Notes under the pieces: generated by a model
What the model was told of the DNA's origin: nothing
Seen by the model: the letters and a program-made list of their open reading frames with translations, nothing else
The model's database searches: none
Translations under genes and position numbers: made by a program
Shown here: piece after piece, positions 2,790-54,552 of the stretch
Numbering within the stretch: position 1 is the first letter of the stretch
How the letters are laid out: each line of letters opens with the position of its first letter
From: a bacterium
Lineage (GTDB): Bacteria > Patescibacteriota > Minisyncoccia > Phycocordibacterales > UBA2100
DNA length: 62,484 bases
Assembly: GCA_030647655.1 (NCBI GenBank)
Contig: JAUSJH010000018.1
Location: forward strand, 1 to 62,484
Direction of reading: 5' to 3'

Positions 2790-2800
2790 AGGAATTTTGA

Positions 2801-6239: not shown

Positions 6240-6250
6240 GCGTTTTCGGG

Positions 6251-6691: not shown

Positions 6692-6701
6692 GTTGTATAT
6701 A

Positions 6702-7343: not shown

Positions 7344-7373
7344 GGTATTCCGTGGTGTGGTATCCTTTATCTT

Positions 7374-7688
7374 ATGGGAAAACTCATCTTATTTCTGTGG
7401 TCGCTAGCGGGAAGCATGGCTTTGCAGATGGGTTGGATTGTAGCGCTTGGGCTTATAGACATTGCAAAGGGTGTAGCGCTCGATTGCCCTCAATTTAGTT
7501 TTTGGGGACCAACTGTACATAATGTCTGCTCATTCGGAGAATATATGTCCTACTCAATAACGTGGGTAACGATGATTAACGTACTGTCTCTCGGCCTCCC
7601 TACACTAGTCATCACGCTGGTGCTTTTCTTAATTTTACTGTTCGTCCAAAAAATTCGATCGATTGCTACTCCCCCTTCAAATCCTTGA
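7374..7688 (+). CDS. small hypothetical membrane protein
   Basis: Hydrophobic segments at both ends; ATG 7 nt after a TATCCT -10-like box; antisense to neighbours, slight overlap with khpA end. Confidence 0.5.
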   Translation: MGKLILFLWSLAGSMALQMGWIVALGLIDIAKGVALDCPQFSFWGPTVHNVCSFGEYMSYSITWVTMINVLSLGLPTLVITLVLFLILLFVQKIRSIATPPSNP

Positions 7689-8040
7689 TGACGTCGTCCA
7701 CCGTCGTGTCGCGCACGTAGGGCTTGGCGGGGCCCGAGTCAATTTCGCCTGCGCCACCCATACTGCGCTCGCCCCGCCCTTCGCGGGGCTCGCTTCCCTC
7801 CGGCTCTTCAATCTTGAGATTGACCCGCGCATCGTTCTTCATCCCGACCACGCGCAAGACGGTGCGGATGGCTTTGGCGGTCGCACCAGAGCGGCCGATG
7901 ACCTTGCCCATGTCGTCTTTGTGCACCGAGAGCGTGAGAAGGACTCCCATCTCATCCACCGTGCGATTAATCTTTACGTCATTCGGATTGTCAACCAATG
8001 CCTTTACCACATAGTCCAAAAATTTCTCATCTTGTTCCAT
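7666..8040 (-). CDS. khpA: KH-domain RNA-binding protein (KhpA/YlqC family)
   Basis: DMGKVIGRSGATAKAIRT (GxxG KH loop); position downstream of rpsP. Confidence 0.9.
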   Translation of the reverse strand: MEQDEKFLDYVVKALVDNPNDVKINRTVDEMGVLLTLSVHKDDMGKVIGRSGATAKAIRTVLRVVGMKNDARVNLKIEEPEGSEPREGRGERSMGGAGEIDSGPAKPYVRDTTVDDVIKDLKGE

Positions 8041-8079
8041 ATCTGAATTGCTATCTTCTAATGGTCTTTTTAGTATACC

Positions 8080-8541
8080 TTATGCGGCCGGCGTCTCCAC
8101 AACATCAGGCGTTTTCTTTTCTACCACTGGCTCCTCTGGTTTTGCCTCTTCGGCAGGAACTTCTGCGGGCGTCTCTGCGGGAGCTACAACTTCTTCCTTC
8201 TTCGCCTCGCCAGAGCCTTCCTCGCCCGTAGTAGCTTTAGCAGAGTCGGGGGCGACGGCGGGTGCTGGTTCTTTGTATTTCGGAAGTACGTTTATCTTCT
8301 TCGCATTCAAAATGCCGAGCGAGACAAGCATATTGTGCACCGTGTCCGACGGCTTGGCGCCTACCGACATCCAATATTTGATGCGTTCGGCATTGAGTAC
8401 GCGCTCCTTGGTCTTGGGGTTGTAGGTGCCGACTTTCTCTACGACGTTGCCTGTCTTGGGACCCTCAGTGTGTTCCACTACGACAATGCGATATGAAGGC
8501 GTATTTATGCGCCCCGTCCTTTGCATTCGTATCTTCAACAT
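8080..8541 (-). CDS. rpsP: 30S ribosomal protein S16 with acidic Pro/Ala/Glu-rich C-terminal extension
   Basis: MLKIRMQRTGR...YRIVV...GTYNP...ERIKYWMSVGAKPSDTV. Confidence 0.96.
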   Translation of the reverse strand: MLKIRMQRTGRINTPSYRIVVVEHTEGPKTGNVVEKVGTYNPKTKERVLNAERIKYWMSVGAKPSDTVHNMLVSLGILNAKKINVLPKYKEPAPAVAPDSAKATTGEEGSGEAKKEEVVAPAETPAEVPAEEAKPEEPVVEKKTPDVVETPAA

Positions 8542-39570: not shown

Positions 39571-40260
39571 CTACTCTTTCTTTTCTTTCTTTTCTTTTTT
39601 CTCCGCTTTTTCCTCTTTTACCCCAGAGGCGGACCCGTCTTTGGCGGGTACAGCTCCCTCCTCCGGCTTTTCGGTCGTGATTATTGTCTCCGGCGGCGGC
39701 GTTATCTCTACCTTCTCTTCCCTGAATTCGGTGACGGATGCGACTATCTCTTCGCCATGCACAATAAGGGTTGCGCTTGGTGGGAGTGTAATCTCGGAAG
39801 CGGTTATGCGGTCGCCGACATTCACGAGCTTCGTGAGGCCAACGGATAGATGGTGCGGCAGTTCTGTCGGTAAAACCTCGATTTCTATCTCGTGAAGCGC
39901 TTTGACGACAATGTGGCCCGCTTTTTCCGCAGGTGCTACGCCAGTCCATTCGAGCGGTACTTTGATCTTGATTTTCTTTCCCTTCTCGAGCACGTAGAAA
40001 TCGGCATGCAAAAGCTGCCCGTTTACCGGATGGAACTGCGTATCATGGATGAGGGTATCCTTGTCTTCTCCGACACCCTTTAGGGTCACGATGGTCGTCT
40101 CTCCCGCTTCGCGCCACACGTGCGCAAGCTTGCGGGCATCCACGGAGATCGCGGTCGCCGCCTGTTTGGGACCATAAAAAACAGCGGGTACGGCGCCATG
40201 CTTGCGCAGTGTATCTGCGGATTCATTCGCTTCACGCGGCTTTACTTCAAGCGCTAACAT
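39571..40260 (-). CDS. rplY: 50S ribosomal protein L25/Ctc
   Basis: LRKHGAVPAVFYG, QFHPVNGQLLHADFY, IEIEVLPTELP. Confidence 0.94.
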   Translation of the reverse strand: MLALEVKPREANESADTLRKHGAVPAVFYGPKQAATAISVDARKLAHVWREAGETTIVTLKGVGEDKDTLIHDTQFHPVNGQLLHADFYVLEKGKKIKIKVPLEWTGVAPAEKAGHIVVKALHEIEIEVLPTELPHHLSVGLTKLVNVGDRITASEITLPPSATLIVHGEEIVASVTEFREEKVEITPPPETIITTEKPEEGAVPAKDGSASGVKEEKAEKKEKKEKKE

Positions 40261-40334
40261 GGCGAGCAGTATACGGATTTGCGGCGCATATGCAAATATC
40301 TGGGCGAATAAATTATTATGCTACAATTCTTTTC

Positions 40335-41318
40335 ATGCAGTATGACTTCGTCGCTATCGGCGACATCACGACCGACGCGTTTATCAAGCTCAAAGACGCA
40401 GAGGAGATGATGAATCACAATACGCGCGAGCTATGCGTGCGCTTCGCCGATAAAGTACCGTACGAAGAGGTCATCGAGGTGCGGGCGGTTGGCAACGCGG
40501 CGAACGCTGCCGTTTCTGCGAAGCGTATCGGCCTTACGTCGGCACTTATCGCACGCGTGGGTGACGACGAAAATGGCAGGAATTGCCGTGCGACTCTGAA
40601 GGAAAATGGTGTCGCCGACGAATACGTCGAGACACAGGCGGGACTTCCTACCAACTATCACTACGTCCTCTGGTTCGGCGCCGAGCGCACCATCTTGGTC
40701 AAACAAACGAAATTCACCTATTCGATGCCGCGGTTCGAGAGTCCGCCGAAATACATCTATCTCACCTCGCTCGGCGAAAGCGCCAAAGATTTCCACCATG
40801 AGATCGCGGCCTACGTGCACGAACACTCCGAGACCAAGCTCGCCTTCCAGCCCGGCACGTTCCAGATAAAGCTCGGCGCCGAAGAACTTAAAGACGTATA
40901 TGCCGTGACCGAGATATTTTTCTGCAACAAAGAGGAGGCACAGAAGATTCTCGGCTCGGCCGAGGGTAACGTGAAGAATCTTATGGAAGGGTTGCGGGAA
41001 CTCGGCCCAAAAATCGTCGTCGTTACCGATGGTCCGAATGGTTCCAACATTCTCGATGGGAGTGGCGCATGGCATGTACCTATGTATCCCGATCCTGCGC
41101 CGCCCGTTTCTCGTACTGGTGCGGGAGACGCGACGGCATCCTCGACCGTTTCCTACATCATGAAAGGTCTCGCGCCCAAAGACGCGCTTTTGCGTGGCAT
41201 GATAAACGCCGCCTCGGTGGTGCAAGGCGTCGGTGCGCAGACAGGACTTCTGACGGATAAAGAAATTGAAGCATGGGACGCGAAGCGACCGGCGGATTTT
41301 GTAGCAACGGAGCTCTAG
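40335..41318 (+). CDS. PfkB-family carbohydrate kinase
   Basis: GNAANAAV, VGDDENG, NKEEA, VTDGPNGS, RTGAGDA. Confidence 0.92.
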   Translation: MQYDFVAIGDITTDAFIKLKDAEEMMNHNTRELCVRFADKVPYEEVIEVRAVGNAANAAVSAKRIGLTSALIARVGDDENGRNCRATLKENGVADEYVETQAGLPTNYHYVLWFGAERTILVKQTKFTYSMPRFESPPKYIYLTSLGESAKDFHHEIAAYVHEHSETKLAFQPGTFQIKLGAEELKDVYAVTEIFFCNKEEAQKILGSAEGNVKNLMEGLRELGPKIVVVTDGPNGSNILDGSGAWHVPMYPDPAPPVSRTGAGDATASSTVSYIMKGLAPKDALLRGMINAASVVQGVGAQTGLLTDKEIEAWDAKRPADFVATEL

Positions 41319-42307
41319 GCACTCTTCCGCGACACTACTTTCTTCACTGCTTCCACAATGTGGGAGACACCCATACCGTAGTGCTCTATCAATTCTTTTG
41401 GTGTGCCGGATTGGCCGAATTTGTCGTGCACGCCGACAAACTCGATTGGTGTGGGACATACCTCTGCGAGTAATTCAGCGATTGCGCCTCCCAAACCTCC
41501 CATTATCTGGTGTTCTTCGACGGTAACAACGGCACCCGCGCCACGCGCAAGCGAGTGGATTATCTCGCGGTCGAGTGGTTTTATTGTGTGCACATTGGTG
41601 ACCGAAACCGCGATGCCTATTTCTTCTAACTCCCGCGCCGCGAGAAGTGCTTGGTAGAGGAGGTGCCCTGTCGCGAAAATCGCGACGACAGGAGAGTCGG
41701 ATTTCCACACGACATTCGCCTTCCCTATTTCAAATGGTGTCTCGGCTGTTGTCATGATCGGCGTCTTGTCGCGTCCGAAGCGCATGTAGCCGGGCTTGCC
41801 GGCCTTAGCGAGCGCGAGCGTTGCCTTGCGCCCCTCTTCAGAGTCGCACGGAGAAATAACTATCATATTCGGAAGCGCGCGCATGAGCGCGATGTCCTCA
41901 AGCGCTTGGTGTGTGGCGCCATCGGGCCCGACAGAGACCCCCGCATGCATGCCGCAGACCACGACTGGCACATTGTTGAGACAAATAGTCGTCCGTATCT
42001 GCTCCCAATTCCTCCCCGGAGAGAACGTCGCGTACGAGGTGATGAAGGGGAGCTTGCCGTAATTGGCCATGCCCGCGGCGACCGTCGCCATATTCTGTTC
42101 GGCAACACCCACCTGCACAAAACGCTCCGGAAATGCTTTTTGGAAATGGTGCGCCTGCGTTGATTCTGCAAGGTCAGCCGTCAAGACGACGACTCGCTCA
42201 TCTAGTTTCCCCGCTTCAACGACACCCTTGCCAAACCCCTCGCGTGTCGAGGCCATGTCGGGTTTATCGAAAATATTAGCGGCAAGTTTTGCTTCTGGAT
42301 TGATCAT
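41315..42307 (-). CDS. transketolase C-terminal (pyrimidine-binding) subunit
   Basis: LTADLAEST, VGVAEQNM, VGPDGATHQALED, VTVEEH, GQSG. Confidence 0.93.
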   Translation of the reverse strand: MINPEAKLAANIFDKPDMASTREGFGKGVVEAGKLDERVVVLTADLAESTQAHHFQKAFPERFVQVGVAEQNMATVAAGMANYGKLPFITSYATFSPGRNWEQIRTTICLNNVPVVVCGMHAGVSVGPDGATHQALEDIALMRALPNMIVISPCDSEEGRKATLALAKAGKPGYMRFGRDKTPIMTTAETPFEIGKANVVWKSDSPVVAIFATGHLLYQALLAARELEEIGIAVSVTNVHTIKPLDREIIHSLARGAGAVVTVEEHQIMGGLGGAIAELLAEVCPTPIEFVGVHDKFGQSGTPKELIEHYGMGVSHIVEAVKKVVSRKSA

Positions 42308-45300
42308 ATATATGATAGCGAGTGTCTTAAGGTATTCATGAGCCAAGTGAAAAATCTCTCTACAATGCCGGGTGAGGAGGCGGTGGCGAGGTTGGAGGAG
42401 GAGTTCGTATCGGAAGTCACGGCTACCGGAAGCGCAGCGACGTAATCAACTGCAATATTGGGACGCACGTCGCTTGCGGAGGCACCGGCGCGGCAGACGC
42501 GGACGTAACGCGCAGGGCTCGCCGAAATGTTCGCGAAATTTTGTGTGCGTTTAGCCGCCGAGAATACAAGCGTGCCGAGCGTTGTCCAGTTTATTTTGTC
42601 GGTACTTGCGAATACATTGCCTCCGGAATTTGTGCCGCAATAGGTTCCGGTGCAAGAGTCGCCGCAGATAGAATCGGGTGTCCAGTAGTCTACGCGCAGA
42701 TTGGAAAAAGACCGCACTGAGCCAAAATCTATATCAATGCATGAAGTGACGGCGTGCGCATCGACGATGTAGGCGATCTGGCCGTCTCTAAATGAGAGAC
42801 CGGCGGGTTGTGAGTCATCTGTCCTTGCACTCGAAACAGAACAGTAATTCGGCACGGTCGCCGCCGTTGCCCCCGGAGGTATAACGCCCGTAACGATGCC
42901 GGTAATCCATTGAGAAGCTCCCGTGACAGCACACGATGCAAATTGGTATGCCCTGGAGAGTACTCCATTGGTGCAGACGCGACTTTGAGAAACGCACTGT
43001 GCTCCGGCAGGGACAGATGATGTTTGGTATGCGGTCACCGATGCACCATTCGCAACGGTGCTGCCGTTGAAGGTACATGATGCACCGGGGCTGGTATTGG
43101 AAACGGTAACGGAGACTGCCGCGGACGTTCTTGTGTTCCCCGCCGCATCGCGCGCGACTGCGGTGATCGAATGTGACCCGTTCGAGACTGTAGTGGTGTT
43201 CCATGATGTTGAGTACGAAGACGCCGTGCCTGTTGTGTCTTCTGCACCGACATTCGTACCATCAACCTTGAACTGCACGCCTGCAACTGCGATGTTGTCA
43301 GAGGCTGTGGCGGTGATGTTCACTGTGCCCGAGACGGTTCCTGTGGCAGGTGCGGTGAGAGAGACTGTGGGTGCGGTGGTGTCGGACGAGCCGCCGGTGA
43401 GAGGAATTTCTACCTCGACTACTGTTGGAATACCAATCGAGCCGTCTGCAACTTTATGATTTTTGTCTCTGACCTCTTGAAGGAAAAGGATCTTCCCATT
43501 CACGAGAGCCGCGCCGCTCTTCGCTTTCATCGTGAATACTTGATTGTAGGAATATTCAGTACGCGAATACCCAGTTAGGGAAAACGTGCGGACATTCCAT
43601 GTGTTCCCGCCATCCATACTCGTCGCTATCTTTCCTCCGCCGAGCACGTCGATACGCGAGCCGTTGACCACGATATTGTGCTGGGACCCGACTATTCCGG
43701 GGATCGGCGCACCTCTGCTCCACGCACCAGTAGTTTTGTTGATTGTATAGAGATACACAGGAACCCCGGTTGCTTCTGTTCGCGCTCCCACAAGATAAAG
43801 CGTGTTTTGCCCATCAAAATCCATATCTTCTTGATGAAACTGCGTGTCATTCGCTCGATTTCCCAACTCTACTGCGCTCACTTTGTTAGACGCATAGTTG
43901 CTCAAGAGTACGAGTTTGTTCTTTTCGCGCTGCGCATTATTTTCTGCGCCCGGATACAAGAACGCACCTGCCACAATCAAGAGTTTATCGCCCCATGCAT
44001 ACATGTTGGGATAAATATACAGAAGGCCCGGTTCATTCAATACCACGTACGGGCCACCCCAAACGCCGTTGCGGTAGGCCCCGCAGCGAAAGTTTTGCAC
44101 TCCGGTACCGTTCGAACTCCTGTCGTACCCGCAGGTGTACAGCGTATCGGAGTCAGCCGCATATGCGACGCCAAGATATCCGATATATCTGCCCTGCGGC
44201 CAACCCGACATATCAACACTGATAGGTGCCGAGAGCGTACCGCTCGAGGCCCTCGTGAATTTGTAATGGACCATCTGATTCACGCTAGCGCCCCCCTCCG
44301 TCGCATATATGAGATGAAGCGTGCCATTCTTATCGACGACAAGGCTCGGCGGCTGGTGCGCGTTGTGCGCAGGAATGTGCTTCGCGAGCGTCCAGCCCGC
44401 CGTAGGGTTATTCTCGTCAAACTTGTAGATGTCAACGGGAAAACCGACTCTCTCATTAGTGCCCACTGTCCTGTTCATGGGGATTTGCAACGTCGCGTAG
44501 CGATAGCGCCCGACACGGATGTACTTCGAACTATGACGCCCCCAGAGAGTTTCGAACTCCGCGTTTGGATCCGGGCCAATCACGCGCCGCGCTGAGTATG
44601 TGCTAGTCGTTGGTGCATCCACGGAGCACGACGCATATTGATACGAGGTATTTCCTGAGAGTACGCCATTGGTACAAGTGCGCTGGACGCTTGAGCACGT
44701 TTGTCCATACGGTACGGAAGGCGTGTTGTAAAACGCTCGCGACTGTCCGCTCGGGACCTCCACATCATCCAACGTGCAGGAGGCGGCCGGCGCGTTCGAC
44801 ACCATCAGATCCCTTGCCTTGCTCGTACCCCCAACGGTCGTGACGGTAAGGCTATAGGTGGCCGGAGGAATGTCGGAGGGAACAGTGAAGCTGATGGTGG
44901 TGCCGTCAGAAGAGGGTGCCGGTATGGCGGTGCTCTGTGCGCCGAAGAACGTATCCCAAATGAGCGCGACGGCGGCGGCGAGGATGCCATTGGGCTTCTT
45001 GGTGAGGCGGACGGTATTGCTTGGGGCGAAGTTGGCACCGGTGATTATCTCCTGTGCTCCTTGTGCAACCGGATTCGGAGACAGGCCGGAGATAGTAGGA
45101 AGAGGCAGGCTCGGGGTGCACGTGGAGAACGCGTAGGTTCCCGTGAGAGTGCCGTTTCCGCAAACACGTGACTGCGATGCACACGTTTGTCCCACGGGGA
45201 CAGACGCGGTTTGATGCGCGGTCACACTTGCACCGTGCGCGACAGTTTGTCCATTGAACGTACAGGAGAGAGGTGCGGCCGTGGAGCAGGTACGGTACTG

Positions 45301-46740
45301 GTGGGTGGTCGGTGCAGAGAGGACTCCGTTGGCACAGGTGCGTGTTTGTGCGATGGATGAACAAACTTGGCCGAAGGCGACGGTGCGTGCGGAGTACGCG
45401 GTCACGAAGGAACCGTGGGAGACGGTGGTGCCGTCGAGGGTGCAGGAAGAAGGTTGACCCGGAGTGCATGTGGCGTTTTGGTATGTTCCCGACAGCACTC
45501 CATTAGTACAGAGTCTTGACTGTGAGATGCAGGTTTGGTCGAAGGGTACGGAGGCACTCTGGTATGCGGTGATGGAGTTTCCGTTCAATACCTGTGCTCC
45601 GTTGAAAGTACAGCTGGTGGGTTGTCCCGGCGTGCAGGCGGAGTATGCGTATGTGCCGGAGAGAGAGCCGTTCGTACACGTGCGGGTTTCAGAGGTGCAG
45701 GTATTGCCGACGGGGACGGAGGAGGATTGATAGAAGGTGTGGGAAGAGGCGTGCGGGATTGAGACGCCGTTTTGTGTGCAAGAGGCGGGTTCTCCTGTTG
45801 TGCAGGAGGTGTATATATTGAGGGAGCTTCCGGTGAGGACTCCGTCGGAGCAAGTACGGGACTGCGCGTACGTGGCACATTGTTCGCCGAAGGGAGCGTT
45901 GGTGCGGGAATACAGCGTCTGGGATGCGCCGTGTGAGAACGTGACACTGCCGAGTGTGCAGGAGCGAGGTGGTGGGGGTGGAGGGCTTCCTCCACCTCCG
46001 CCTCCTCCGCCGCCTCCACCTCCTCCTCCACCGCCTCCACCTCCGGTACTTCCTCCACCAGTTGTTCCTCCTGTTCCAGTACCAGTTCCTGTTCCACCTC
46101 CGGCGGCTGCTCTCGTTGCAATGAACGTTCTCGTCCTCGGACCCACTGCTCCGTATCCTGTTGTGTTTGGTGAGCCTGTAGAGACGATGCCGCTCTGCAC
46201 TTGGAATCGTTGTACGGCGGCTTCGGTGAGAGCGCCGAAGAAGCCCGTGGCGGAGTCGGTAGAGAGAAAGCCTTCTGCGATGAGAATGTGCTGGAGGATG
46301 ATGACGTCTTCTCCGGTACTTCCTTTGGATAGAGTGCGGGTGATGGCAGAGGTTGTTGGAGTTGGTGTGGGAGTTGGAGTAGGAGTGGCAACTGTTCCTC
46401 CGCAGGAGAGGGTGATGGCGGCACGGGTCCTTGGTCCCACTGCTCCGTATCCTGTGGTTGAGGGTGTGCCGCTGGAGACGAGGGAGTGAGATGCCTGCCA
46501 CTGCTTGACCACCGCTTCGGTGGTGGGGCCGAAGTATCCGGTCACGGAGTCTTGGGTGAAGTCTGCGTATTCTTGTGTGAAGAAGGTCTGGAGGGCTTTG
46601 ACATCGTTGCCCGAGACACCGCGCGATAGAGTGCGGGTGAATGTGGGGCAGGTGGAGGCGTGGGAAAAGAGAGGCATCGCGAGGAAGAGCCCCGTGAAGA
46701 TTACGAGAACGATGTGACGAGTTAGTGTCATGTTGATCAT
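42304..46740 (-). CDS. giant modular surface protein (2x peptidoglycan-binding domain, poly-Gly/Pro linker, 7x four-Cys repeat, IPT/TIG-like, BNR/Asp-box propeller, Ig-like, Cys-rich discoidin-like domain)
   Basis: LSRGVSGNDVKALQ...TGYFGPTTEAVVKQWQ x2; SCTxNG...C...RxCxNGxL...Y..C repeats; SMDGGNTW; DTTAPTVSLTAP...VAGVQFKVDG. Confidence 0.85.
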   Translation of the reverse strand: MINMTLTRHIVLVIFTGLFLAMPLFSHASTCPTFTRTLSRGVSGNDVKALQTFFTQEYADFTQDSVTGYFGPTTEAVVKQWQASHSLVSSGTPSTTGYGAVGPRTRAAITLSCGGTVATPTPTPTPTPTTSAITRTLSKGSTGEDVIILQHILIAEGFLSTDSATGFFGALTEAAVQRFQVQSGIVSTGSPNTTGYGAVGPRTRTFIATRAAAGGGTGTGTGTGGTTGGGSTGGGGGGGGGGGGGGGGGGGSPPPPPPRSCTLGSVTFSHGASQTLYSRTNAPFGEQCATYAQSRTCSDGVLTGSSLNIYTSCTTGEPASCTQNGVSIPHASSHTFYQSSSVPVGNTCTSETRTCTNGSLSGTYAYSACTPGQPTSCTFNGAQVLNGNSITAYQSASVPFDQTCISQSRLCTNGVLSGTYQNATCTPGQPSSCTLDGTTVSHGSFVTAYSARTVAFGQVCSSIAQTRTCANGVLSAPTTHQYRTCSTAAPLSCTFNGQTVAHGASVTAHQTASVPVGQTCASQSRVCGNGTLTGTYAFSTCTPSLPLPTISGLSPNPVAQGAQEIITGANFAPSNTVRLTKKPNGILAAAVALIWDTFFGAQSTAIPAPSSDGTTISFTVPSDIPPATYSLTVTTVGGTSKARDLMVSNAPAASCTLDDVEVPSGQSRAFYNTPSVPYGQTCSSVQRTCTNGVLSGNTSYQYASCSVDAPTTSTYSARRVIGPDPNAEFETLWGRHSSKYIRVGRYRYATLQIPMNRTVGTNERVGFPVDIYKFDENNPTAGWTLAKHIPAHNAHQPPSLVVDKNGTLHLIYATEGGASVNQMVHYKFTRASSGTLSAPISVDMSGWPQGRYIGYLGVAYAADSDTLYTCGYDRSSNGTGVQNFRCGAYRNGVWGGPYVVLNEPGLLYIYPNMYAWGDKLLIVAGAFLYPGAENNAQREKNKLVLLSNYASNKVSAVELGNRANDTQFHQEDMDFDGQNTLYLVGARTEATGVPVYLYTINKTTGAWSRGAPIPGIVGSQHNIVVNGSRIDVLGGGKIATSMDGGNTWNVRTFSLTGYSRTEYSYNQVFTMKAKSGAALVNGKILFLQEVRDKNHKVADGSIGIPTVVEVEIPLTGGSSDTTAPTVSLTAPATGTVSGTVNITATASDNIAVAGVQFKVDGTNVGAEDTTGTASSYSTSWNTTTVSNGSHSITAVARDAAGNTRTSAAVSVTVSNTSPGASCTFNGSTVANGASVTAYQTSSVPAGAQCVSQSRVCTNGVLSRAYQFASCAVTGASQWITGIVTGVIPPGATAATVPNYCSVSSARTDDSQPAGLSFRDGQIAYIVDAHAVTSCIDIDFGSVRSFSNLRVDYWTPDSICGDSCTGTYCGTNSGGNVFASTDKINWTTLGTLVFSAAKRTQNFANISASPARYVRVCRAGASASDVRPNIAVDYVAALPVAVTSDTNSSSNLATASSPGIVERFFTWLMNTLRHSLSYI

Positions 46741-47162
46741 ACGTGCAAAAGATTGAGACCTATATCTTCATCGAGACCGCGAAGAAGCGGCTGGGTCACA
46801 AGCCAGAGACAGAGTTCGAGCGTCACGGCAACCGTCGCAGACCGGAGGTGCCCTCCGATGCACTCAAGAGTTTCATCGCACCTTGAAAGCACCGCGTGCG
46901 CATGGACGAGGGGTCGTTCATTAAGCTCGGAAACATTGCCGTCCATACTCGCGACCTCGAGCGGCCCTTCTTCTTCACGGAACACGTATCTACGATTTAC
47001 CAGATCATAATAGCCAATTTCCACATCCTTGACGGCACCGATCGCCTGAAACTGCGCCCAGTGCACGTCCTGCTCTTCGCAAAAACGCGTCAACGTGTCT
47101 ATGAGCTCTTCCTCACGCGAGAGTACTAGGAAAAAACCATTGTGTATTTGGATAGCTTGCAT
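46737..47162 (-). CDS. PPC/DUF296 domain protein
   Basis: LSREEELIDTL, AIGAV, EVASMDGN, VHAHAVLS, GGHL, TLEL. Confidence 0.88.
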   Translation of the reverse strand: MQAIQIHNGFFLVLSREEELIDTLTRFCEEQDVHWAQFQAIGAVKDVEIGYYDLVNRRYVFREEEGPLEVASMDGNVSELNERPLVHAHAVLSRCDETLECIGGHLRSATVAVTLELCLWLVTQPLLRGLDEDIGLNLLHV

Positions 47163-47163
47163 A

Positions 47164-48051
47164 TTACGGATGCCCGACCGCAACATTTTTTTGTACCGTG
47201 CGGAGCTCCGCCAAGAAAACCTCTTTCTGCTTGTCGGCGGGGATTTTGTCGGTCGGGCCTTTGCCAGGCGGATTGCCGTGCCAGCGATAATCGTTTTCAA
47301 TGGTCGGCACACCTTTGCCGGGGATGGTGTGCGCGAGGATGAGGGTCGGTTTTTCCTTAATAGCTTTCGCCTCATCGCAGGCGGCGACGAATTGCGGGAT
47401 ATTGTGGCCATCTACCTCGATGACATGCCAGTTGAACGCGCGGTACTTGTCGGCCATAGGCTCGAGCGGCATCACATCCTCTGTGTTGCCGTCTATTTGA
47501 ATGTTATTGCGGTCCATAATGGCGGTCAGATTGGTCAGCCGGTATTTACCAGCGAACATCGCGGCTTCCCACGTATTGCCTTCTTCCTGCTCGCCGTCCG
47601 ACATCGCGCAGAAAACGCGAAATGTCTTGCCGTCCATGCGCGCGGCATAGGCGTATCCGGCGGACTGTGAGAGCCCGCTTCCAAGTGGCCCCGATGTGGT
47701 TTCCATACCGGGCAACATATCGCGCTCCGGATGCCCTTGCAGTCGCGAGCCGAATTTGCGAAGTGTCATACATTCCTCAATAGGAAAATATCCAGCATGC
47801 GCCATTGCGGCATAGCGCACGGGGACGATGTGGCCGTTGGAGAGCATCAGGCGGTCGCGCAGTGGCCACTCGGTATTTTTAGGATCGTGCTTCATGACGC
47901 GGAAATAGAGCGCCGTGAAAATGTCCGCCATGCCGAGCGGCCCCGACAAGTGGCCGGAGCCTGCGGCAACAAGCATCTCGATTATGGTTACACGAATGGC
48001 ATTGGCACGCTGTTCGAGTTTCTTTATCTCTTGGTCGGTTAGCGCTTCCAT
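47164..48051 (-). CDS. transketolase N-terminal (TPP-binding) subunit
   Basis: SGHLSGPLG, RDRLMLSNGH, RLQGHP, TSGPLGSGLS, SDGEQEEGNTWEA, DRNNIQIDG. Confidence 0.94.
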   Translation of the reverse strand: MEALTDQEIKKLEQRANAIRVTIIEMLVAAGSGHLSGPLGMADIFTALYFRVMKHDPKNTEWPLRDRLMLSNGHIVPVRYAAMAHAGYFPIEECMTLRKFGSRLQGHPERDMLPGMETTSGPLGSGLSQSAGYAYAARMDGKTFRVFCAMSDGEQEEGNTWEAAMFAGKYRLTNLTAIMDRNNIQIDGNTEDVMPLEPMADKYRAFNWHVIEVDGHNIPQFVAACDEAKAIKEKPTLILAHTIPGKGVPTIENDYRWHGNPPGKGPTDKIPADKQKEVFLAELRTVQKNVAVGHP

Positions 48052-48127
48052 TAATAGCAATATAGCAGACTTTGTTACGCGAACCGCCGTCAAGTCCTGT
48101 GGACTTACGAAGCCCTTCTACCCGACC

Positions 48128-48805
48128 CTAGAGAGCCTGCTTTGCGATTTGCATCAACTTCTCGTACGCCGCTTTCGGGTCGGGCGCTTTTGATATCGCA
48201 GAACCAATGCCAAACCGCGTGGCTCCCGCTCGAACCAAGTCGGCGATATTGGATTCTGCAACACCACCATCGACTGAAATTTTGACTTCGGGAAACTGCA
48301 TATGAAACTGTGCGATGCGCGCCGGTGCCGAAGGGTCATAAGGAATTCCCTGTGTTCCAATCGTTGCGATAGACATCAGATGCACGACATCACACGCCGG
48401 CACAAGCGGAGCGATAACCTCAAATGGTGTCGGGAGAAGGAGGCCGAGACCGACCTCTTTCGCTCCCGCCTGTCTCCACGCATTGAGTGCGCCGTGCGCT
48501 TCGTTCGTATCAGCAAAAGCTTCCGCGTGTCCCATGATACGCACGGCGCCGGCGTGCGCAAAAGCGATCCCAAGTTCTCGCGGCTCTTCAATCATGAGAT
48601 GCACATCGGCAGAGAGACCTCGTACTGCGCCAAGACCAAAGGCACGAAATTCCCCCTGCTTCACGTATGGCCATGTGATATGCGGAGCAAAAAGTCCATC
48701 ATCGACATCGATATGGATGGCGGTCGTGAACGAACGAATTCGCTCTGCCCCCGCCGCTAAATCCTCTTCATCGCGAGGCACGTACGTCGGGATTATTTCG
48801 ATCAT
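48128..48805 (-). CDS. rpe: ribulose-phosphate 3-epimerase
   Basis: IHIDVDDGLFAP, DVHLMI, VHLMSI...GTQG, ISVDGG, GSAI. Confidence 0.9.
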   Translation of the reverse strand: MIEIIPTYVPRDEEDLAAGAERIRSFTTAIHIDVDDGLFAPHITWPYVKQGEFRAFGLGAVRGLSADVHLMIEEPRELGIAFAHAGAVRIMGHAEAFADTNEAHGALNAWRQAGAKEVGLGLLLPTPFEVIAPLVPACDVVHLMSIATIGTQGIPYDPSAPARIAQFHMQFPEVKISVDGGVAESNIADLVRAGATRFGIGSAISKAPDPKAAYEKLMQIAKQAL

Positions 48806-48816
48806 GGAAAAACTCG

Positions 48817-49245
48817 CTACGGGCCAACAACATAATTGCCGTCAGGCGCAGGCCCACCGAGCCCTGTCGATCCTATGTTGCACGACGAGACTGGCTGCGG
48901 CGTCGTTTCCAACATAGCGCCAAGGCAATAAAACTCACCGCCTTCCGACCTGTGTGTATAGGTGTAATCATCACCCGTTCCGGGATCCTTCGGCACGTTA
49001 GCGATATAAGAGGAACCAATCGAAGAAAGATCGGGCGGATATGCTGGCACTGGCTGGTCACTGTAATAGAGCTCCATGGCCACCTGTAGCTGCTTTAAGT
49101 CAGCAAGGCGGCGAGCATCGCGCCCCTTCTTCCGCGCGCCATTAAGCGACGCAAGTACGACAGACGAGAGGAGTCCGATAATCGCAATCACGACCAAGAG
49201 TTCGATGAGCGTGAAGCCCCGAGATTTCTGTGCAGATGTAAACAT
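48817..49245 (-). CDS. type IV pilin / T2SS pseudopilin-like protein
   Basis: Class III signal KSRG|FTLIELLVVIAIIGLL; ARKKGRDARRLADLKQLQVAMELYY; DP motif; C-terminal Cys pair. Confidence 0.9.
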   Translation of the reverse strand: MFTSAQKSRGFTLIELLVVIAIIGLLSSVVLASLNGARKKGRDARRLADLKQLQVAMELYYSDQPVPAYPPDLSSIGSSYIANVPKDPGTGDDYTYTHRSEGGEFYCLGAMLETTPQPVSSCNIGSTGLGGPAPDGNYVVGP

Positions 49246-49260
49246 AGAGAGTCTGAATAA

Positions 49261-49506
49261 TTAATAGGTGGCGGTTCCCCAGTTCGGCGTCGTTGGGACA
49301 TTGGAAGAACCCGAGCTACTCATATAAACAAAAATGGCAACTATCAGAGCAATGACCCCAATTCCAATCAACACATACTCTGCCTCTTTTCGCGATGACA
49401 CAAGTCCCCATGCGACAAGTTTGCCGCTAAAGTCGAAGCCTCCTGAAGCTACGGGCGGCCTGCCAAACTCATTCTGGTCGTCGGTCTGAAATTGCATCTC
49501 ACTCAT
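49261..49506 (-). CDS. small hypothetical membrane protein
   Basis: 81 aa, single TM; -10 TATACT 6 nt upstream of ATG. Confidence 0.7.
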   Translation of the reverse strand: MSEMQFQTDDQNEFGRPPVASGGFDFSGKLVAWGLVSSRKEAEYVLIGIGVIALIVAIFVYMSSSGSSNVPTTPNWGTATY

Positions 49507-49560
49507 AGGATGAGTATACCCTGTTGGTATGAGTTGTATAGATTAAGTGTGGATTGCGTA

Positions 49561-50010
49561 TCAGGACCTCTCTTCTATCCTCATTATCTTCTTGAGTCGC
49601 CGTAAGTGCCGATCCTCTCCGCTGAAAGACGTGGAAAGAAATGCTGCGATTATATCCCGAGCTTCTTCTGCAGTGAGTGCATCGCTTGAAAGCGCGACCA
49701 CGTTGGCATCGTTGTGCTCGCGCGCGTGCTGTGCTTCTTCCTTCGTCCGAGCGACCACGGCCCGCACGTCCTTGACCTTATTCGCAACGATTGCGGCTCC
49801 GGCACCGGAACGACACAGGAAAATGCCGCGGGCGTTCATATCTTCTCCGATCTTTTGCGCCGCCGGATACATAAAATCCGGATAGTCGTCCGCAGGGTCG
49901 AGCGTATGTGCGCCCTCATCTATAACGTCGTACCCCTGAGTCAAGAGGTATGCCTTCAGCGCCTCTTTGAGGTTGAACCCGCCGTGATCCGTCGCCAGAT
50001 ATACCTTCAT
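49561..50010 (-). CDS. rpiB: ribose-5-phosphate isomerase B (RpiB/LacAB family)
   Basis: TDHGG, DDYPD, LCRSGAG, ANKVKDVRA, AREHNDANVVAL, RHLRRL. Confidence 0.92.
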   Translation of the reverse strand: MKVYLATDHGGFNLKEALKAYLLTQGYDVIDEGAHTLDPADDYPDFMYPAAQKIGEDMNARGIFLCRSGAGAAIVANKVKDVRAVVARTKEEAQHAREHNDANVVALSSDALTAEEARDIIAAFLSTSFSGEDRHLRRLKKIMRIEERS

Positions 50011-51017
50011 GACCTTAGGCGCTTTGCGACTTCGGAGACGTGCTCGATGAGCGTGTGCGTGTAGCCCATTTCGTTGTCGTACCACGCGAGGACTTTCACC
50101 AAGAGGCCGTCGACGACGCGCGTCATGCCGAGGTCGGCTATCGCGCCATATGGCAGACCGAGAATATCAGATGAAACGAGAGGCTCGTCGGAGACTGCAA
50201 ACACGCGTTTCCAACGGTCGGTTGCGGCGGCCTTTCTCATCGCATCGTTCACCTCTTCGACAGTGGTCGGGCGCGATGGAGTGAAGGTTATGTCGACGAT
50301 GGAGCCGGAAGGCACCGGCACGCGCACCGCGATGCCGTCGAATTTGCCTTTGAGTTTCGGATATGCGATCGCTGTCGCCTTCGCCGCACCTGTGGAAGAC
50401 GGCACGAGATTTTGTGCGCCTGCCCTACCGCGACGGAAATCGTCGGGCGCCGTGCCGTCGACGATACCCTGCGTTGCCGTATAGGCGTGGGTGGTGTTGA
50501 GAAGCGCCCGCTCGATGCCGATGGCTTCATCCAAAATGCCGATAAGAGGGCTCGCGCAATTGGTCGTGCACGACGCGTTCGATGTGATGTCGCACGTACC
50601 GAATTTCTCTTCGTTGGCGCCGATGAGAATGGTTTCTACGCCCTCGCCTTTGCCGGGTGCGGTGATGACAACCTTTTTCGCTCCCGCATCAATGTGCGCA
50701 TGCGCCTTCGCTCCATCTGTAAAATATCCGGTCGACTCGATGACGATATCGACCTTCATGTCCCTCCACGGCAACTTCGCCGGATCTTTCTCCGCAAAGA
50801 CCGGAATGGTTTTCCCGTCAACGACAAGCGCCTTGTCCGCCAACGCGACAGAGAACTTCGCGCGGCCATAGACCGTGTCGTATTTCAAAAGGTAGGCGAG
50901 ATTTTCCGCCGGCGCCAAATCATTCACGGCGACAATCTCAAATTCTGCGCGCCCATGGACTGCTCGCATGAATCCCCTGCCAATTCTCCCGAACCCATTT
51001 ATTGCTATGCGTGCCAT
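50007..51017 (-). CDS. gap: type I glyceraldehyde-3-phosphate dehydrogenase
   Basis: INGFGRIGR, SNASCTTNC, PSSTGAAKA, WYDNEMGY. Confidence 0.97.
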   Translation of the reverse strand: MARIAINGFGRIGRGFMRAVHGRAEFEIVAVNDLAPAENLAYLLKYDTVYGRAKFSVALADKALVVDGKTIPVFAEKDPAKLPWRDMKVDIVIESTGYFTDGAKAHAHIDAGAKKVVITAPGKGEGVETILIGANEEKFGTCDITSNASCTTNCASPLIGILDEAIGIERALLNTTHAYTATQGIVDGTAPDDFRRGRAGAQNLVPSSTGAAKATAIAYPKLKGKFDGIAVRVPVPSGSIVDITFTPSRPTTVEEVNDAMRKAAATDRWKRVFAVSDEPLVSSDILGLPYGAIADLGMTRVVDGLLVKVLAWYDNEMGYTHTLIEHVSEVAKRLRS

Positions 51018-51080
51018 GGTCAACCTATTATATCCTATTCTGTATCAATGCGTGCGCACGATGACGGTTTCCTTTGAATA

Positions 51081-52134: not shown

Positions 52135-54552
52135 TCAAGTGTGCCTTATGTTCATAATGAGATTCGCGAGCCACACAAAGAATCTCTCTACGAGGCCAGG
52201 TGAGGAGGCGGAGGCGAGACTGTCTTTGGGCTCCGATCTATCGGACGCACTCTCACTTGCAGTAGAAAGCACATCACCCAAAGGCATCTCAACTTCCAGA
52301 ATTGCCTGCCTTCCAGTGGTAAGATTTCGCACATTTTCCAAAAGCAGTATCCTGTCGTCGGGCAGAGCCGCACCGCTCTTTGTTTTCATGATGTGTGTAC
52401 GCACATATGCATAGTCGTTGAGCGGATATCCGGCTATTGTGTACGGACTCACCGACCACGTAGTTCCGGCATCTATGCTCACCGCATGTTGGCCATTCCC
52501 AATCACGTCAATCCGCGCACCGTGGACAATAAGATTGTGCCCCGCTTCATTCGTTTGGGCGCCGAAGCCGGCAATGGGAAGCCATATCTTCTTCCGAAAT
52601 CCCGTAGCAGTATCGATCACAAAGAGGTAGTTGGCATTGGTTGCAAGAGCCGTCCCCAGAAGGTAGAGGGTGTGTTGGCCGTCAAAATCTATATCTTCTT
52701 CAAAGAATTGCGTGCTGTTGCTTATGTTTCCGAGCGTCGCTTTGGAGTCAACGTGCGACCCATATCCACTCACCAGAATAAAGCGGTTGAGCTGACGTAT
52801 ATCGTAGTCGGCTTGGTCCATATGAAGACCGGAAGCAATCCGTAACTTATCACCCGATGCATACAGATTGGGGTACAAGAGCCGACCGCCCACTTCTTTT
52901 GAGATTTCGTAGGCCTGACTCCAGGCTCCACTGCGGTACGCTCCACAGCGAAAGATGTCCGATATATGATCGGTCGCACAGAAGTAGATGGTATCGGAGT
53001 CTACAGCATATGCCACACCGTGGTAGGCAAAATAAAAATTCCCTAGTAACGAATTGAAGGGCGAGGTATTAATAATCTGTGGTGAAGAGAGCGTGCCTGT
53101 CGAGGCCCCGGTAAATTTGAGGTGCGCCAGTTTGCCATTAGCATCATCGTAGAGTATGTTAAGTGCGCCATTGTTATCCAAAATCAACGATGGTGGCTGA
53201 TGTGCGTCTTTGCTCGGTTGCATCCACGCGAGTTGCCATCCGCTGCCCGGAGCATTCTCATCAAAACGGTAAATAGCAGCTGGTATCGGAAGTGTTGTTA
53301 AGTCGTTCTGAAGTACCGCGTAGCGGTAATGCCCTACACGCACATATTTTGGGCTGTGGCGGCCCCACATCAGCGTGAGTTGGGAGAGCGCGTCTGTAAT
53401 AATAGGGCGGGGCGTATACTCCTGCGCGGCGGCGACGGTACATTGAGCGAAGCGATATTGAAGCTCGCCCGACAACACTCCGTTGGTACACGTTCTCGTC
53501 TGGACATACGAAGAGCAGAGCGCGGGAGGTGCCACGATGGATGTAGAATAGAATGTGGCCGATTGTCCGGACAAAATCTCTACGCCATTGAGTATGCAAG
53601 GAGCTTGTGTGTTCAGTACATTTGCGGTACGTGCTGCAGATACTTTGATATTTCCCGACGCGTCAGTAGCGATGGCGACCACCGTATGCGGCCCGTCTGC
53701 GACACGAGTTGTGTCCCATGAGGCTGAATATGGAATTGTGGTATCTCTATCGCCTACACTCGCATTGTCGACTTTGAATTGCACGCCCGCCACACCTTTT
53801 TCGTCGGAAGCCGTTGCGGATAGTACGATTGCGCCCGATATAATTTGATTATTCGCCGGAGTGTAGAGGGAGACAGAGGGAGGAGTCGTGTCGGGAAACA
53901 CTGTATTCCCCGCCAAAAAGTCAACCGCAATACCTCCCCGGACAAAGCTTGCGGCTGCACCCGCGCGGCACACCCGGGCGTAGCGTAGAGGCATTGTTGA
54001 GACTTTCGCATAATTCACCGTGCGCTCAATCGTCGAATATGGCAGGGAGCCGAGTAGTGTCCACGTCGCCTTGTCTCTGCTCACTAATATGTAGCCTCCC
54101 GGGTTGGTTCCGCAATAGTTTCCGGTACACGAGTTGCCGCAGATGGAATTCGGCATCCAATAATCCACGCGCAGAGAGGAGAAAGACCGCACCGAGCCGA
54201 AATCCATGTCAATGCATGAAGTAACGGCGTAGCTGCCTACTCTGTATGCAATATTCCCTTTGCGGTAAGAAAGTCCTGCAGGAAGCGAGTCATCAGTTTT
54301 GAGTCTGGCGATTGAGCAGTAGTTCGGCGTAGTCGTTGCGGAAACTCCCGGCGGTATGACGCCAGAAACCGCGCCCGTAATCCACGCCGGTGCAACCGCC
54401 AACGCCTCTGTGGCCGCCGTTGCCACATCTGGTGCCAACATTTCTTCGGCGACCGCCAGATTGTTGCCCTGAAATAAGGCAGACGAAACAATAAGTAGAA
54501 GAACGAGACCGAGAAGGATCAGGAGTGGGTATACTCTCGGACGAAGGGTCAT
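52135..54552 (-). CDS. modular surface protein (Cys-rich discoidin-like, Ig-like, four-Cys repeat, BNR propeller)
   Basis: Same domains as 42304-46740 in different order; RPRVYPLL signal-anchor; shared C-terminal SSPGLVERFFxWL motif. Confidence 0.85.
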   Translation of the reverse strand: MTLRPRVYPLLILLGLVLLLIVSSALFQGNNLAVAEEMLAPDVATAATEALAVAPAWITGAVSGVIPPGVSATTTPNYCSIARLKTDDSLPAGLSYRKGNIAYRVGSYAVTSCIDMDFGSVRSFSSLRVDYWMPNSICGNSCTGNYCGTNPGGYILVSRDKATWTLLGSLPYSTIERTVNYAKVSTMPLRYARVCRAGAAASFVRGGIAVDFLAGNTVFPDTTPPSVSLYTPANNQIISGAIVLSATASDEKGVAGVQFKVDNASVGDRDTTIPYSASWDTTRVADGPHTVVAIATDASGNIKVSAARTANVLNTQAPCILNGVEILSGQSATFYSTSIVAPPALCSSYVQTRTCTNGVLSGELQYRFAQCTVAAAQEYTPRPIITDALSQLTLMWGRHSPKYVRVGHYRYAVLQNDLTTLPIPAAIYRFDENAPGSGWQLAWMQPSKDAHQPPSLILDNNGALNILYDDANGKLAHLKFTGASTGTLSSPQIINTSPFNSLLGNFYFAYHGVAYAVDSDTIYFCATDHISDIFRCGAYRSGAWSQAYEISKEVGGRLLYPNLYASGDKLRIASGLHMDQADYDIRQLNRFILVSGYGSHVDSKATLGNISNSTQFFEEDIDFDGQHTLYLLGTALATNANYLFVIDTATGFRKKIWLPIAGFGAQTNEAGHNLIVHGARIDVIGNGQHAVSIDAGTTWSVSPYTIAGYPLNDYAYVRTHIMKTKSGAALPDDRILLLENVRNLTTGRQAILEVEMPLGDVLSTASESASDRSEPKDSLASASSPGLVERFFVWLANLIMNIRHT

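What the first reader, a model, noticed from the sequence alone, without database searches (positions are those of the whole stretch)
42300..46741. 4.4-kb adhesin gene inserted at the transketolase start codon with a 9-bp direct repeat
TATGATCAA (minus strand) occurs at both junctions (46733-46741 and 42300-42308). The adhesin and TktC therefore both start M-I-N, and both junctions are ATGA stop/start overlaps. The insertion keeps translational coupling through DUF296-adhesin-tktC. It looks like a target-site duplication or microhomology insertion with no mobility gene, putting a giant surface protein under central-carbon operon control.
Basis: partly seen in the sequence, partly recalled or inferred. 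Interest (0 to 1): 0.65.

Follow-up and report, generated by a model that had tools for sequence, protein, structure and literature searches.

The report
Surface-protein gene inserted before tktC
In one ultra-small (Kaiserbacteria-like) groundwater bacterium, a 4.4-kb gene for a large secreted cell-wall-binding protein sits exactly between two overlapping genes of a sugar-metabolism operon and duplicates the first bases of the downstream gene; relatives still show the empty site, so this is a clean but mechanistically ordinary case of gene gain.

Summary
TATGATCAA lies on the minus strand at 46741-46733 and 42308-42300. It flanks a 1478-codon ORF, and both junctions are ATGA stop/start overlaps. 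In the genus (116 genomes), 58 carry the PCC/DUF296 gene and none has this gene between PCC and tktC. The closest relatives by a TktC tree, G106 and G117, join PCC to tktC through a single ATGA overlap (cgtATGATACATCC), inside a collinear 12-gene block. The left repeat copy is therefore the old PCC/tktC junction, which kept the first 8-9 nt of tktC. The right copy is the working tktC start. The inserted gene is a unique mosaic of modules shared with paralogs in the same genome. Those paralogs end ...CTATCATATATA-TAA, whereas this gene ends ...CTATCATATATA-TGA-TCAA, so its stop codon was created at the junction. There are no terminal inverted repeats, no transposase and no second copy. The likely mechanism is illegitimate (microhomology-level) recombination or template switching, not transposition. 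"Adhesin" and "operon control" remain inferences. The space between the split transketolase genes is a recurrent insertion site in this order. This is a new member of a known kind, of modest interest.

The parts
46733..46741 (-). Left copy of TATGATCAA. It is the retained ancestral PCC/tktC junction: the PCC stop TGA overlaps an ATG that was once the tktC start and now opens the inserted ORF.
   Evidence: Relatives have the same junction directly in front of tktC.
42300..42308 (-). Right copy of TATGATCAA. The TGA stop of the inserted ORF overlaps the working tktC ATG. ATGATCAAT encodes the conserved M-I-N of TktC.
   Evidence: Many relatives' tktC genes begin ATGATCAAyCC (M-I-N-P).
42304..46740 (-). 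Inserted gene ('BIG', 1478 aa). Its modules are: signal peptide; 2x PG_binding_1 (res 31-115, 133-215); Gly/Pro linker (216-262); about 56-aa Cys repeats (263-545, 651-712, 1216-1275); an IPT-like stretch (546-650); a central all-beta module with one Asp-box SMDGGNTW (713-1118); Big_7 (1124-1194); a galactose-binding-like domain (1276-1440); and a C-terminal tag.
   Evidence: Pfam. Sequence. Mosaic similarity to paralogs in the same genome. No full-length homologue in 5.8 billion proteins.
46729..46731 (-). Second ATG (codon 4). It is probably the native start of the inserted gene: MTLTRH... resembles the MTLRPRV/MTPRPRV heads of neighbouring family members.
   Evidence: inference.
42307..42420 (-). 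Family-specific C-terminal tag ...SNLATASSPGIVERFFTWLMNTLRHSLSYI. Its coding end CTATCATATATA matches paralogs that then stop with TAA.
   Evidence: The tag was found in 5 genes of this genome and in none of 40 relatives.
46737..47159 (-). PCC/DUF296 gene (PF03479). The start is taken at the Met 4 nt after the tktN stop.
47164..48093 (-). tktN, the transketolase N-terminal (TPP-binding) subunit. The listed ORF may be about 15 codons too long at its 5' end.
41315..42307 (-). tktC, the transketolase C-terminal subunit (Transket_pyr + Transketolase_C). It is the last gene of the operon.
48128..51023 (-). Upstream part of the operon: GAPDH (50007-51023), RpiB (49561-50085), an 81-aa ORF, a pilin-like protein (48817-49245) and Rpe (48128-48805).
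   Evidence: The order is collinear in G106 and G117.
40209..41318 (+). Convergent PfkB-family sugar kinase gene. The 342-aa minus-strand ORF 40431-41459 is its shadow.
52135..54552 (-). Nearest paralog (805 aa). It shares the central module (47% identity), the galactose-binding-like domain (64%), Big_7 and the C-terminal tag with the inserted gene.

Best explanation
After the G000 lineage split from its closest sampled relatives, one ORF-sized piece of DNA was inserted into the overlapping PCC/tktC junction of a pentose-phosphate operon (GAPDH-RpiB-...-Rpe-TktN-PCC-TktC). The piece encodes a secreted, peptidoglycan-binding, multi-domain surface protein of a family that expanded in this lineage. 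The break lay just after the first 8-9 nt of tktC, and 6-9 nt of target (GATCAA up to TATGATCAA) were duplicated. The old tktC start, overlapping the PCC stop, now opens the new ORF and adds M-I-N in front of its own Met-4 signal peptide. The second copy restores an intact tktC start. The new gene's stop codon (TGA, where the family normally uses TAA) was created at the junction, with a likely 3-nt TAT microhomology. The event was most likely illegitimate recombination or replicative template switching, that is, repair-type joining with no element-encoded machinery. Only an outcome that kept ATGA overlaps on both sides, and hence tktC expression, would have survived selection. Shown: the repeat, the overlaps, the empty site in relatives, the derived state, and the absence of IRs, transposase and extra copies. 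Inferred: the exact breakpoints, the mechanism, co-transcription and translational coupling, and the surface or adhesive role.
For: Repeat and overlaps. Empty site: 19 genus genomes have TktN-PCC-TktC with PCC next to tktC, most through an ATGA overlap. The emptied G000 site aligns base for base with them. Polarity: in the TktC tree G000 is nested (support 99/94) with G106 and G117, both with the empty site. A block RF-SLT-L25-PfkB-TktC-PCC-TktN-Rpe-pilin-orf81-RpiB-GAPDH is collinear, and BIG is the only extra gene in G000. The central module of BIG is absent from the other 115 genus genomes. Junction anatomy: paralogs end CTATCATATATA-TAA-TG whereas BIG ends CTATCATATATA-TGA-TCAATCC. Met-4 starts a family-like signal peptide. 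Not a mobile element: there is no inverted repeat of 7 nt or more at the ends, no transposase or integrase among the neighbours, and BIG is single-copy. Composition is host-like at GC 0.565 and GC3 0.598. The assembly is confirmed across both junctions.
Against: No donor copy was found; the best paralogs are 43-78% identical and only in pieces, so the left breakpoint shows no demonstrable microhomology. The TAT microhomology rests on two tandem paralogs. The 9-mer alone is not rare enough to prove duplication: 8 comparable start/next-start matches exist genome-wide. TATGA is ancestral at the PCC end, so only TCAA (about 1/256) strictly needs the duplication. A 9-bp duplication is also what a staggered transposase-type cut would leave. 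There are no RNA data for coupling or co-transcription.
Confidence: 0.72

Rival explanations
1. This is a true transposition-type target-site duplication. A transposase or other staggered-cutting enzyme encoded elsewhere, acting in trans, inserted the segment and gap repair produced the 9-bp duplication.
For: The perfect 9-bp direct repeat flanks the insert exactly. By general knowledge, 9 bp is a classical TSD length (IS1, Tn5, Tn10). Two other insertions at the tktN/tktC site in the order may also carry short junction repeats: ATGAGTA in G027 and AAACCCAAAA in G036.
Against: There are no terminal inverted repeats of 7 nt or more. There is no transposase in or beside the insert. There is no other copy of the segment in this genome or in 115 genus genomes. 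The insert boundaries coincide with an ORF, and its 3' end is simply the family's normal coding end.
Confidence: 0.12
2. The insertion is real but the 9-mer identity is coincidence plus constraint. ATGA overlaps are common, TATGA is the ancestral PCC end, TA is the family's own 3' end, and TCAA matched by chance. Alternatively, a circular intermediate recombined at a pre-existing 9-bp microhomology (Campbell-type), so nothing was duplicated de novo.
For: There are 154 candidate ATGA junctions in the genome, and the pairwise 9-mer identity probability is 0.0029. Eight similar start/next-start matches exist genome-wide. Family genes occur as spacer-free tandem arrays (TAATG overlaps on contig C17) that could loop out unit-length circles.
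Against: The left copy shares with the right copy the G000-specific states ATC-AAy, where the sister genomes have ATA-CAT and ATT-CAT. The array junction sequence (TATATATAATGCTC) does not contain TGATCAA. Chance for TCAA is about 0.4-1%.
Confidence: 0.1
3. The gene is ancestral at this site, and the relatives lost it by deletion between the two 9-bp repeats.
For: Deletion between short direct repeats would leave exactly one copy, as seen in the relatives.
Against: It would need several independent, identical losses. Every sampled relative lacks the gene, including both sister genomes and all outgroups. The central module and the C-terminal tag are absent from the rest of the genus.
Confidence: 0.03
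4. It is an assembly artefact: a paralogous surface-protein gene was wrongly joined into the operon.
For: The gene family is repetitive, and contigs of this genome break inside such genes (C17/C14).
Against: Independent Logan contigs from run X1 cross both junctions with 0 differences at even depth of about 27-29. A 9-bp repeat is far below assembler k-mer size. Both junctions are unique sequence.
Confidence: 0.02

Closest known systems
Microhomology-mediated illegitimate recombination / template switching (MMBIR-FoSTeS type events; Hastings et al. 2009, PMC2621351, found)
   Same: The insertion has no element-encoded machinery and no inverted repeats. The junctions carry 0-3 nt of possible microhomology, and there is a short duplication of target sequence.
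   Different: That model was defined on human and E. coli copy-number changes. Here the donor is unknown, and the product is trimmed exactly to one ORF, with both stop/start overlaps preserved. Selection rather than mechanism probably accounts for that precision.
Target-site duplications of IS elements and transposons (for example the 9-bp TSDs of IS1, Tn5 and Tn10; general knowledge)
   Same: A perfect 9-bp direct repeat of target sequence lies on both sides of the inserted DNA.
   Different: There is no transposase, no terminal inverted repeats and no additional copies, and the insert ends are ordinary coding sequence.
Split transketolase operons (tktN + tktC as separate adjacent genes), here in Parcubacteria/Kaiserbacteria-like CPR genomes
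   Same: TktN (PF00456) and TktC (PF02779 + PF02780) are separate genes in one operon with Rpe and RpiB.
   Different: In G000 the two subunit genes are 4.9 kb apart, separated by PCC and a 1478-codon secreted-protein gene. In relatives they are 5-30 nt apart or separated by PCC only.
   Same: A newly placed surface-protein gene carries a copy of the head of a resident gene.
   Different: Here only 9 nt (three codons) are shared, and the head belongs to a metabolic gene, not to another surface-protein gene.

Membership tests
Transposable element insertion (IS/Tn) with target-site duplication | Short direct duplication of the target flanking the insert | tested here: met
   There is a 9/9 repeat at both junctions. 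Relatives have a single copy.
Transposable element insertion (IS/Tn) with target-site duplication | Terminal inverted repeats at the insert ends | tested here: not met
   The longest inverted match between the first and last 120 nt is 6 nt, and it is not terminal.
Transposable element insertion (IS/Tn) with target-site duplication | Transposase or recombinase gene inside or next to the element | tested here: not met
   The insert is one ORF with PG_binding_1 and Big_7 domains. The neighbours are PCC, Tkt, Rpe and PfkB.
Transposable element insertion (IS/Tn) with target-site duplication | Multiple copies at different sites | tested here: not met
   There is only one full-length copy. The paralogs are 43-78% identical in pieces. 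The central module is absent from 115 genus genomes.
Illegitimate / microhomology-mediated insertion | Empty site in close relatives with otherwise collinear flanks | tested here: met
   G106 and G117 share the collinear 12-gene block, and PCC and tktC are joined by ATGA.
Illegitimate / microhomology-mediated insertion | Microhomology between donor and target at the breakpoints | tested here: inconclusive
   At the right junction, TAT is shared by the family 3' end (CTATCATATATA-TAA) and the target (gTATGATCAA). The left junction cannot be judged because no donor is known.
Illegitimate / microhomology-mediated insertion | Identifiable donor sequence | tested here: not met
   No near-identical copy was found in the genome, in 116 genus genomes, in 5.8 billion proteins or in JGI contigs.
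Translationally coupled operon genes (ATGA overlap) | Stop codon of the upstream gene overlaps the start codon of the downstream gene, on the same strand | tested here: met
   Both junctions are ATGA overlaps. Actual coupling or co-transcription is not testable here because no RNA runs exist.
Bacterial surface adhesin | Secretion signal plus cell-envelope attachment plus Ig-like or lectin-like modules | tested here: met
   The N-terminus is hydrophobic with an AST|C-type cleavage region (sequence). PG_binding_1 x2 scores 1.3e-19 and Big_7 scores 8.9e-15. F5_F8_type_C_2 is below threshold at 1.2e-4.
Bacterial surface adhesin | Demonstrated binding to a host or substrate ligand | not testable with these tools
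   There is no experimental data. The single-sequence AlphaFold model of the central module was unusable (pLDDT 33).
Split transketolase (TktN/TktC) | Separate genes carrying Transketolase_N, and Transket_pyr + Transketolase_C | tested here: met
   Orthologues were found in 38 of 41 related genomes.

The most novel reading that the evidence does not exclude
The space between the split transketolase genes may be a preferred landing site for ORF-sized cassettes in these CPR bacteria. An unrecognised trans-acting mechanism would place the cassettes so that they leave 7-10-bp duplications of the resident gene's start or end. The cases are G000 with 9 bp, G027 with ATGAGTA around an 828-bp insert, and G036 with AAACCCAAAA near both junctions. 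The insert would then take over the old start codon. If so, the spacer-free surface-protein arrays of G000 would be products of the same process.
Probability: 0.1. Interest if true: 0.65.

Novelty: new member of a known kind. Interest (0 to 1): 0.3.

Why it matters
This is an unusually clean natural example of how a streamlined, transposon-poor CPR genome gains a gene inside an essential metabolic operon without breaking it. The empty site, the derived state and the chimeric stop/start junctions can all be read directly from sequence. It also separates the two subunit genes of transketolase by 4.9 kb and makes tktC translation potentially dependent on a 1478-codon secreted-protein gene. That is a testable oddity for operon stoichiometry. 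Beyond that, it describes no new kind of system.

Tried and rejected
(1) Terminal inverted repeats at the insert ends: none of 7 nt or more. (2) Full-length homologues of the inserted protein: none. The top hits in 5.8 billion proteins cover only the Cys-repeat third, so alignment A1 built from them was useless for the central module. (3) AlphaFold of the central module from a single sequence: pLDDT 33, discarded, and no fold search was run. (4) The PDB sequence search gave only spurious Gly-linker matches to scFv chains. (5) Closer strains: there were no relatives of the central module in JGI metagenome contigs and no exact protein on record. There was no exact 25-nt empty-site sequence in metagenome or genome collections. 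(6) RNA evidence: only three DNA runs exist for this study and there is no RNA. (7) Promoter and terminator scans were at background level and uninformative for this lineage. (8) Foreign composition of the insert: rejected, because GC and GC3 match the host. (9) The minus-strand 342-aa ORF downstream of tktC, which I first treated as a gene, is a shadow of a PfkB gene on the plus strand. (10) TSD-like repeats around other cargo at this site: present or possible in G027, G036 and G005 (TATGA only), absent in G020, G006 and G001. There is therefore no general rule.
Full report
**1. What is in the sequence**

On the minus strand, TATGATCAA occupies 46741-46733 and 42308-42300. It is the longest direct repeat between the two junction zones.
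- The upstream ORF has a PCC/DUF296 domain (PF03479, 2.1e-23). It ends with TGA at 46739-46737, overlapping the ATG of a 1478-codon ORF (42304-46740).
- That ORF ends with TGA at 42306-42304, overlapping the ATG of a 330-aa protein with Transket_pyr and Transketolase_C domains.
- Both downstream proteins begin M-I-N.

**2. Context**

The genes lie in one same-strand, tightly packed block:
- GAPDH (50007-51023)
- RpiB (49561-50085)
- an 81-aa ORF
- a pilin-like protein
- Rpe (48128-48805)
- TktN (47164-48093)
- PCC (46737-47159)
- the large gene
- TktC (41315-42307)

A convergent PfkB kinase gene on the plus strand follows at 40209-41318. The 342-aa minus-strand ORF there is only its shadow.

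This is a non-oxidative pentose-phosphate operon with a split transketolase. The genome is 0.9 Mb in 21 contigs. Database names of related proteins and earlier notes point to a Kaiserbacteria-like CPR bacterium from groundwater.

**3. Is it an insertion?**

TktC was sought in 41 related genomes and PCC in all 116 genomes of the genus.
- 58 genus genomes carry PCC.
- In 19 fetched loci the order is TktN-PCC-TktC with PCC abutting tktC, mostly through one ATGA overlap.
- In 10 loci the order is PCC-TktN-TktC.
- In many genomes TktN abuts TktC directly.
- None has the large gene, or anything resembling it, between PCC and tktC.

A maximum-likelihood TktC tree nests G000 (support 99/94) with G106 and G117, and both have the empty site. 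Fifteen-kb regions of G106 and G117 are collinear with the window over RF, SLT, L25, PfkB, TktC, PCC, TktN, Rpe, pilin, orf81, RpiB and GAPDH. The large gene is the only extra gene in G000.

With the insert and one repeat copy removed in a script, the G000 site aligns base for base with the relatives' junctions:
- G000: cacgTATGATCAATCCAGAAGC
- G003: gaccTATGATCAACCCGGACGC
- G011: caatTATGATAAGCCCCGACGC
- G106: cgcgtATGATACATCCCGAC

The central module of the large protein occurs in no other of the 116 genus genomes. Its C-terminal tag occurs in none of 40 relatives. Gain in the G000 lineage is far more parsimonious than repeated precise loss.

**4. Anatomy of the junctions**

ATGATCAAyCC (M-I-N-P) is the common 5' end of tktC in the genus, and xTATGA is the common 3' end of PCC. 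The left copy is therefore the old PCC/tktC junction, preserved through the first 8-9 nt of tktC. After it comes c-ATG-ACA-CTA..., where Met-4 opens a signal peptide (MTLTRHIVLV...). That peptide resembles the heads of neighbouring family members (MTLRPRV, MTPRPRV).

On the right side, two paralogs on contig C17 end ...CTGCTATCATATATA-TAA-TG. The inserted gene ends ...CGCTATCATATATA-TGA-TCAATCC. This has three consequences:
- The gene runs to its family-typical last codon (…L-S-Y-I).
- Its stop codon is a junction product.
- The right breakpoint lies within TAT|GATCAA.

So 6-9 nt of target were duplicated, with a possible 3-nt microhomology.

The two copies share ATC-AAy, where the sister genomes have ATA-CAT and ATT-CAT. 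This fits a duplication that took place inside the G000 lineage.

**5. How strong is the repeat by itself?**

The repeat alone is only moderately strong.
- The 9-mer occurs 9 times in the genome.
- Two random ATGA junctions share a 9-mer with probability 0.0029.
- A permissive genome-wide scan finds 8 of 1540 candidate start/next-start pairs sharing a run of 9 nt or more that includes the ATG.
- Because TATGA is ancestral at the PCC end, only TCAA strictly requires the duplication.

The case therefore rests on the comparative evidence, with the repeat as a consistent detail.

**6. What was inserted**

The 1478-aa protein has this module order:

| Residues | Module | Support |
|---|---|---|
| N-terminus | signal peptide | sequence |
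| 31-115, 133-215 | PG_binding_1 x2 | 1.3e-19 |
| 216-262 | Gly/Pro linker | sequence |
| 263-545 | five Cys-rich repeats of about 56 aa | no Pfam model |
| 546-650 | IPT-like stretch | sequence |
| 651-712 | Cys repeat | no Pfam model |
| 713-1118 | all-beta module with one Asp-box | only sub-threshold BNR hits |
| 1124-1194 | Big_7 | 8.9e-15 |
| 1216-1275 | Cys repeat | no Pfam model |
| 1276-1440 | galactose-binding-like domain | F5_F8_type_C_2, 1.2e-4, below cut-off |
| C-terminus | tag SPGIVERFFTWL...LSYI | shared with paralogs |

It is a mosaic.
- Its N-terminal 240 residues are 72-78% identical to C17 paralogs.
- Its central module is 47% identical to the 805-aa gene 5.4 kb upstream (52135-54552).
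- Its lectin-like domain is 64% identical to that same gene.

No full-length homologue exists among 5.8 billion proteins. GC and GC3 match the host. [quoted passage not shown] is justified. "Adhesin" is a reasonable guess only.

**7. Mechanism**

There are no terminal inverted repeats, no transposase or integrase, and no second copy. These features fail the membership test for a transposable element, although a 9-bp duplication is what a staggered cut would leave.

I favour illegitimate recombination or replicative template switching (MMBIR-like; PMC2621351). Selection would then keep only an outcome that preserved the PCC stop, gave the new ORF a start and restored the tktC start.

A Campbell-type crossover of a unit-length circle at a pre-existing 9-bp match cannot be excluded, because family genes do form spacer-free tandem arrays. 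However, the array junction lacks TGATCAA.

Co-transcription and termination-reinitiation at both ATGA overlaps are inferred from the zero spacing. No RNA data exist, and the consensus promoter scan is uninformative.

**8. Assembly**

Logan contigs from run X1 cover 42122-46432 and 46513-47456 with no differences at depth about 27-29, and no contig skips the insert. This is probably the source sample, so it checks the assembler, not the biology.

**9. Wider pattern**

The gap between tktN and tktC holds varied cargo across the order:
- a Gp49-like/HTH_3 toxin-antitoxin pair (G006)
- a 23S-rRNA-IVP four-helix protein (G001)
- a pilin-like gene plus PCC (G002)
- small membrane proteins (G020, G005, G033, G036)
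- a 263-aa membrane protein (G027)

Short repeats at the junctions are not consistent across these inserts:
- In G027 the 828-bp insert has ATGAGTA at both junctions.
- In G036, AAACCCAAAA recurs near both junctions.
- G005 has only TATGA.
- G020, G006 and G001 show nothing.

The site is a hotspot, but a common mechanism is not established.

**10. Verdict**

This is a lineage-specific, ORF-precise gene insertion with a short target duplication and no mobility machinery. It is a tidy new example of a known process rather than a new kind of system.

Noticed in passing
L010 (G006), L014 (G001), L007 (G002), L006, L011, L021, L022, L023 between tktN/PCC and tktC: The gap between the two split-transketolase genes is a recurrent insertion site in this order. 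Cargo includes a Gp49-like + HTH_3 toxin-antitoxin pair, a 23S_rRNA_IVP four-helix protein, a pilin-like gene and several small membrane proteins.
   Followed up: partly
L021 (G027) and L023 (G036), junctions of the inserts upstream of tktC: The 828-bp insert in G027 has ATGAGTA at both junctions, the left copy being the tktN 3' end. In G036 the inserted small ORF and tktC both begin ATGAAC and share AAACCCAAAA. These may be further target duplications or may be chance.
   Followed up: partly
L008, L009, L046, L047, L050, L051, L053-L055, L059-L061 versus L002, L044, L045 and others: The PCC/DUF296 gene sits either before tktN or between tktN and tktC in different genus members, and is absent from half of the 116 genomes. 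It is a mobile partner of the tkt operon whose function is unknown.
   Followed up: partly
window 42307-42420, 52153-52233; genome contigs C17:5284-5388, C17:1598-1696, C14:5818-5901: The C-terminal tag ...ASSPG(I/L)VERF(L/F)TWL... is shared by five large secreted proteins of this genome and was not detected in 40 related genomes. It is a candidate lineage-specific sorting or anchoring signal.
   Followed up: partly
genome contig C17 (about 1-8300, minus strand), continuing into C14: Three family genes form a spacer-free tandem array. Each stop overlaps the next start (…TCATATATA-TAA-TG…), and the tail-plus-head junctions are nearly identical. The contig breaks inside the repeat.
   Followed up: partly
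window 45106-45954, 44605-44790, 42916-43095: A Cys-rich repeat of about 56 aa (C.FNG.T.AHG.SVTAY...C.S..R.C.NG.LSGSY....C) has no Pfam model. It dominates the best database hits, which include Bdellovibrio-like and other non-CPR proteins.
   Followed up: no
window 43387-44604 and 52279-53412: An all-beta module of about 400 aa with a single Asp-box is present twice in this window (47% identity) and in no other of 116 genus genomes. Its origin is unknown.
   Followed up: partly
L080 7530-8744 (G106) and the matching place in L081 (G117): G106, and apparently G117, carry a 404-aa gene with a twin-arginine-like N-terminus directly after tktC, again with an ATGA overlap. G000 and many other relatives lack it.
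   Followed up: partly
window 40431-41459 (-) versus 40209-41318 (+): The long minus-strand ORF has no Pfam hit and is the antisense shadow of a PfkB-family kinase gene. tblastn 'hits' to it in relatives are shadows too.
   Followed up: yes
L008 (G016) and L015 (G024): The tktN and tktC start contexts share 8-mers (AAGGTATG and TGCGTATG) in these two genomes. Matching start contexts of adjacent genes may be commoner here than uniform chance predicts.
   Followed up: no
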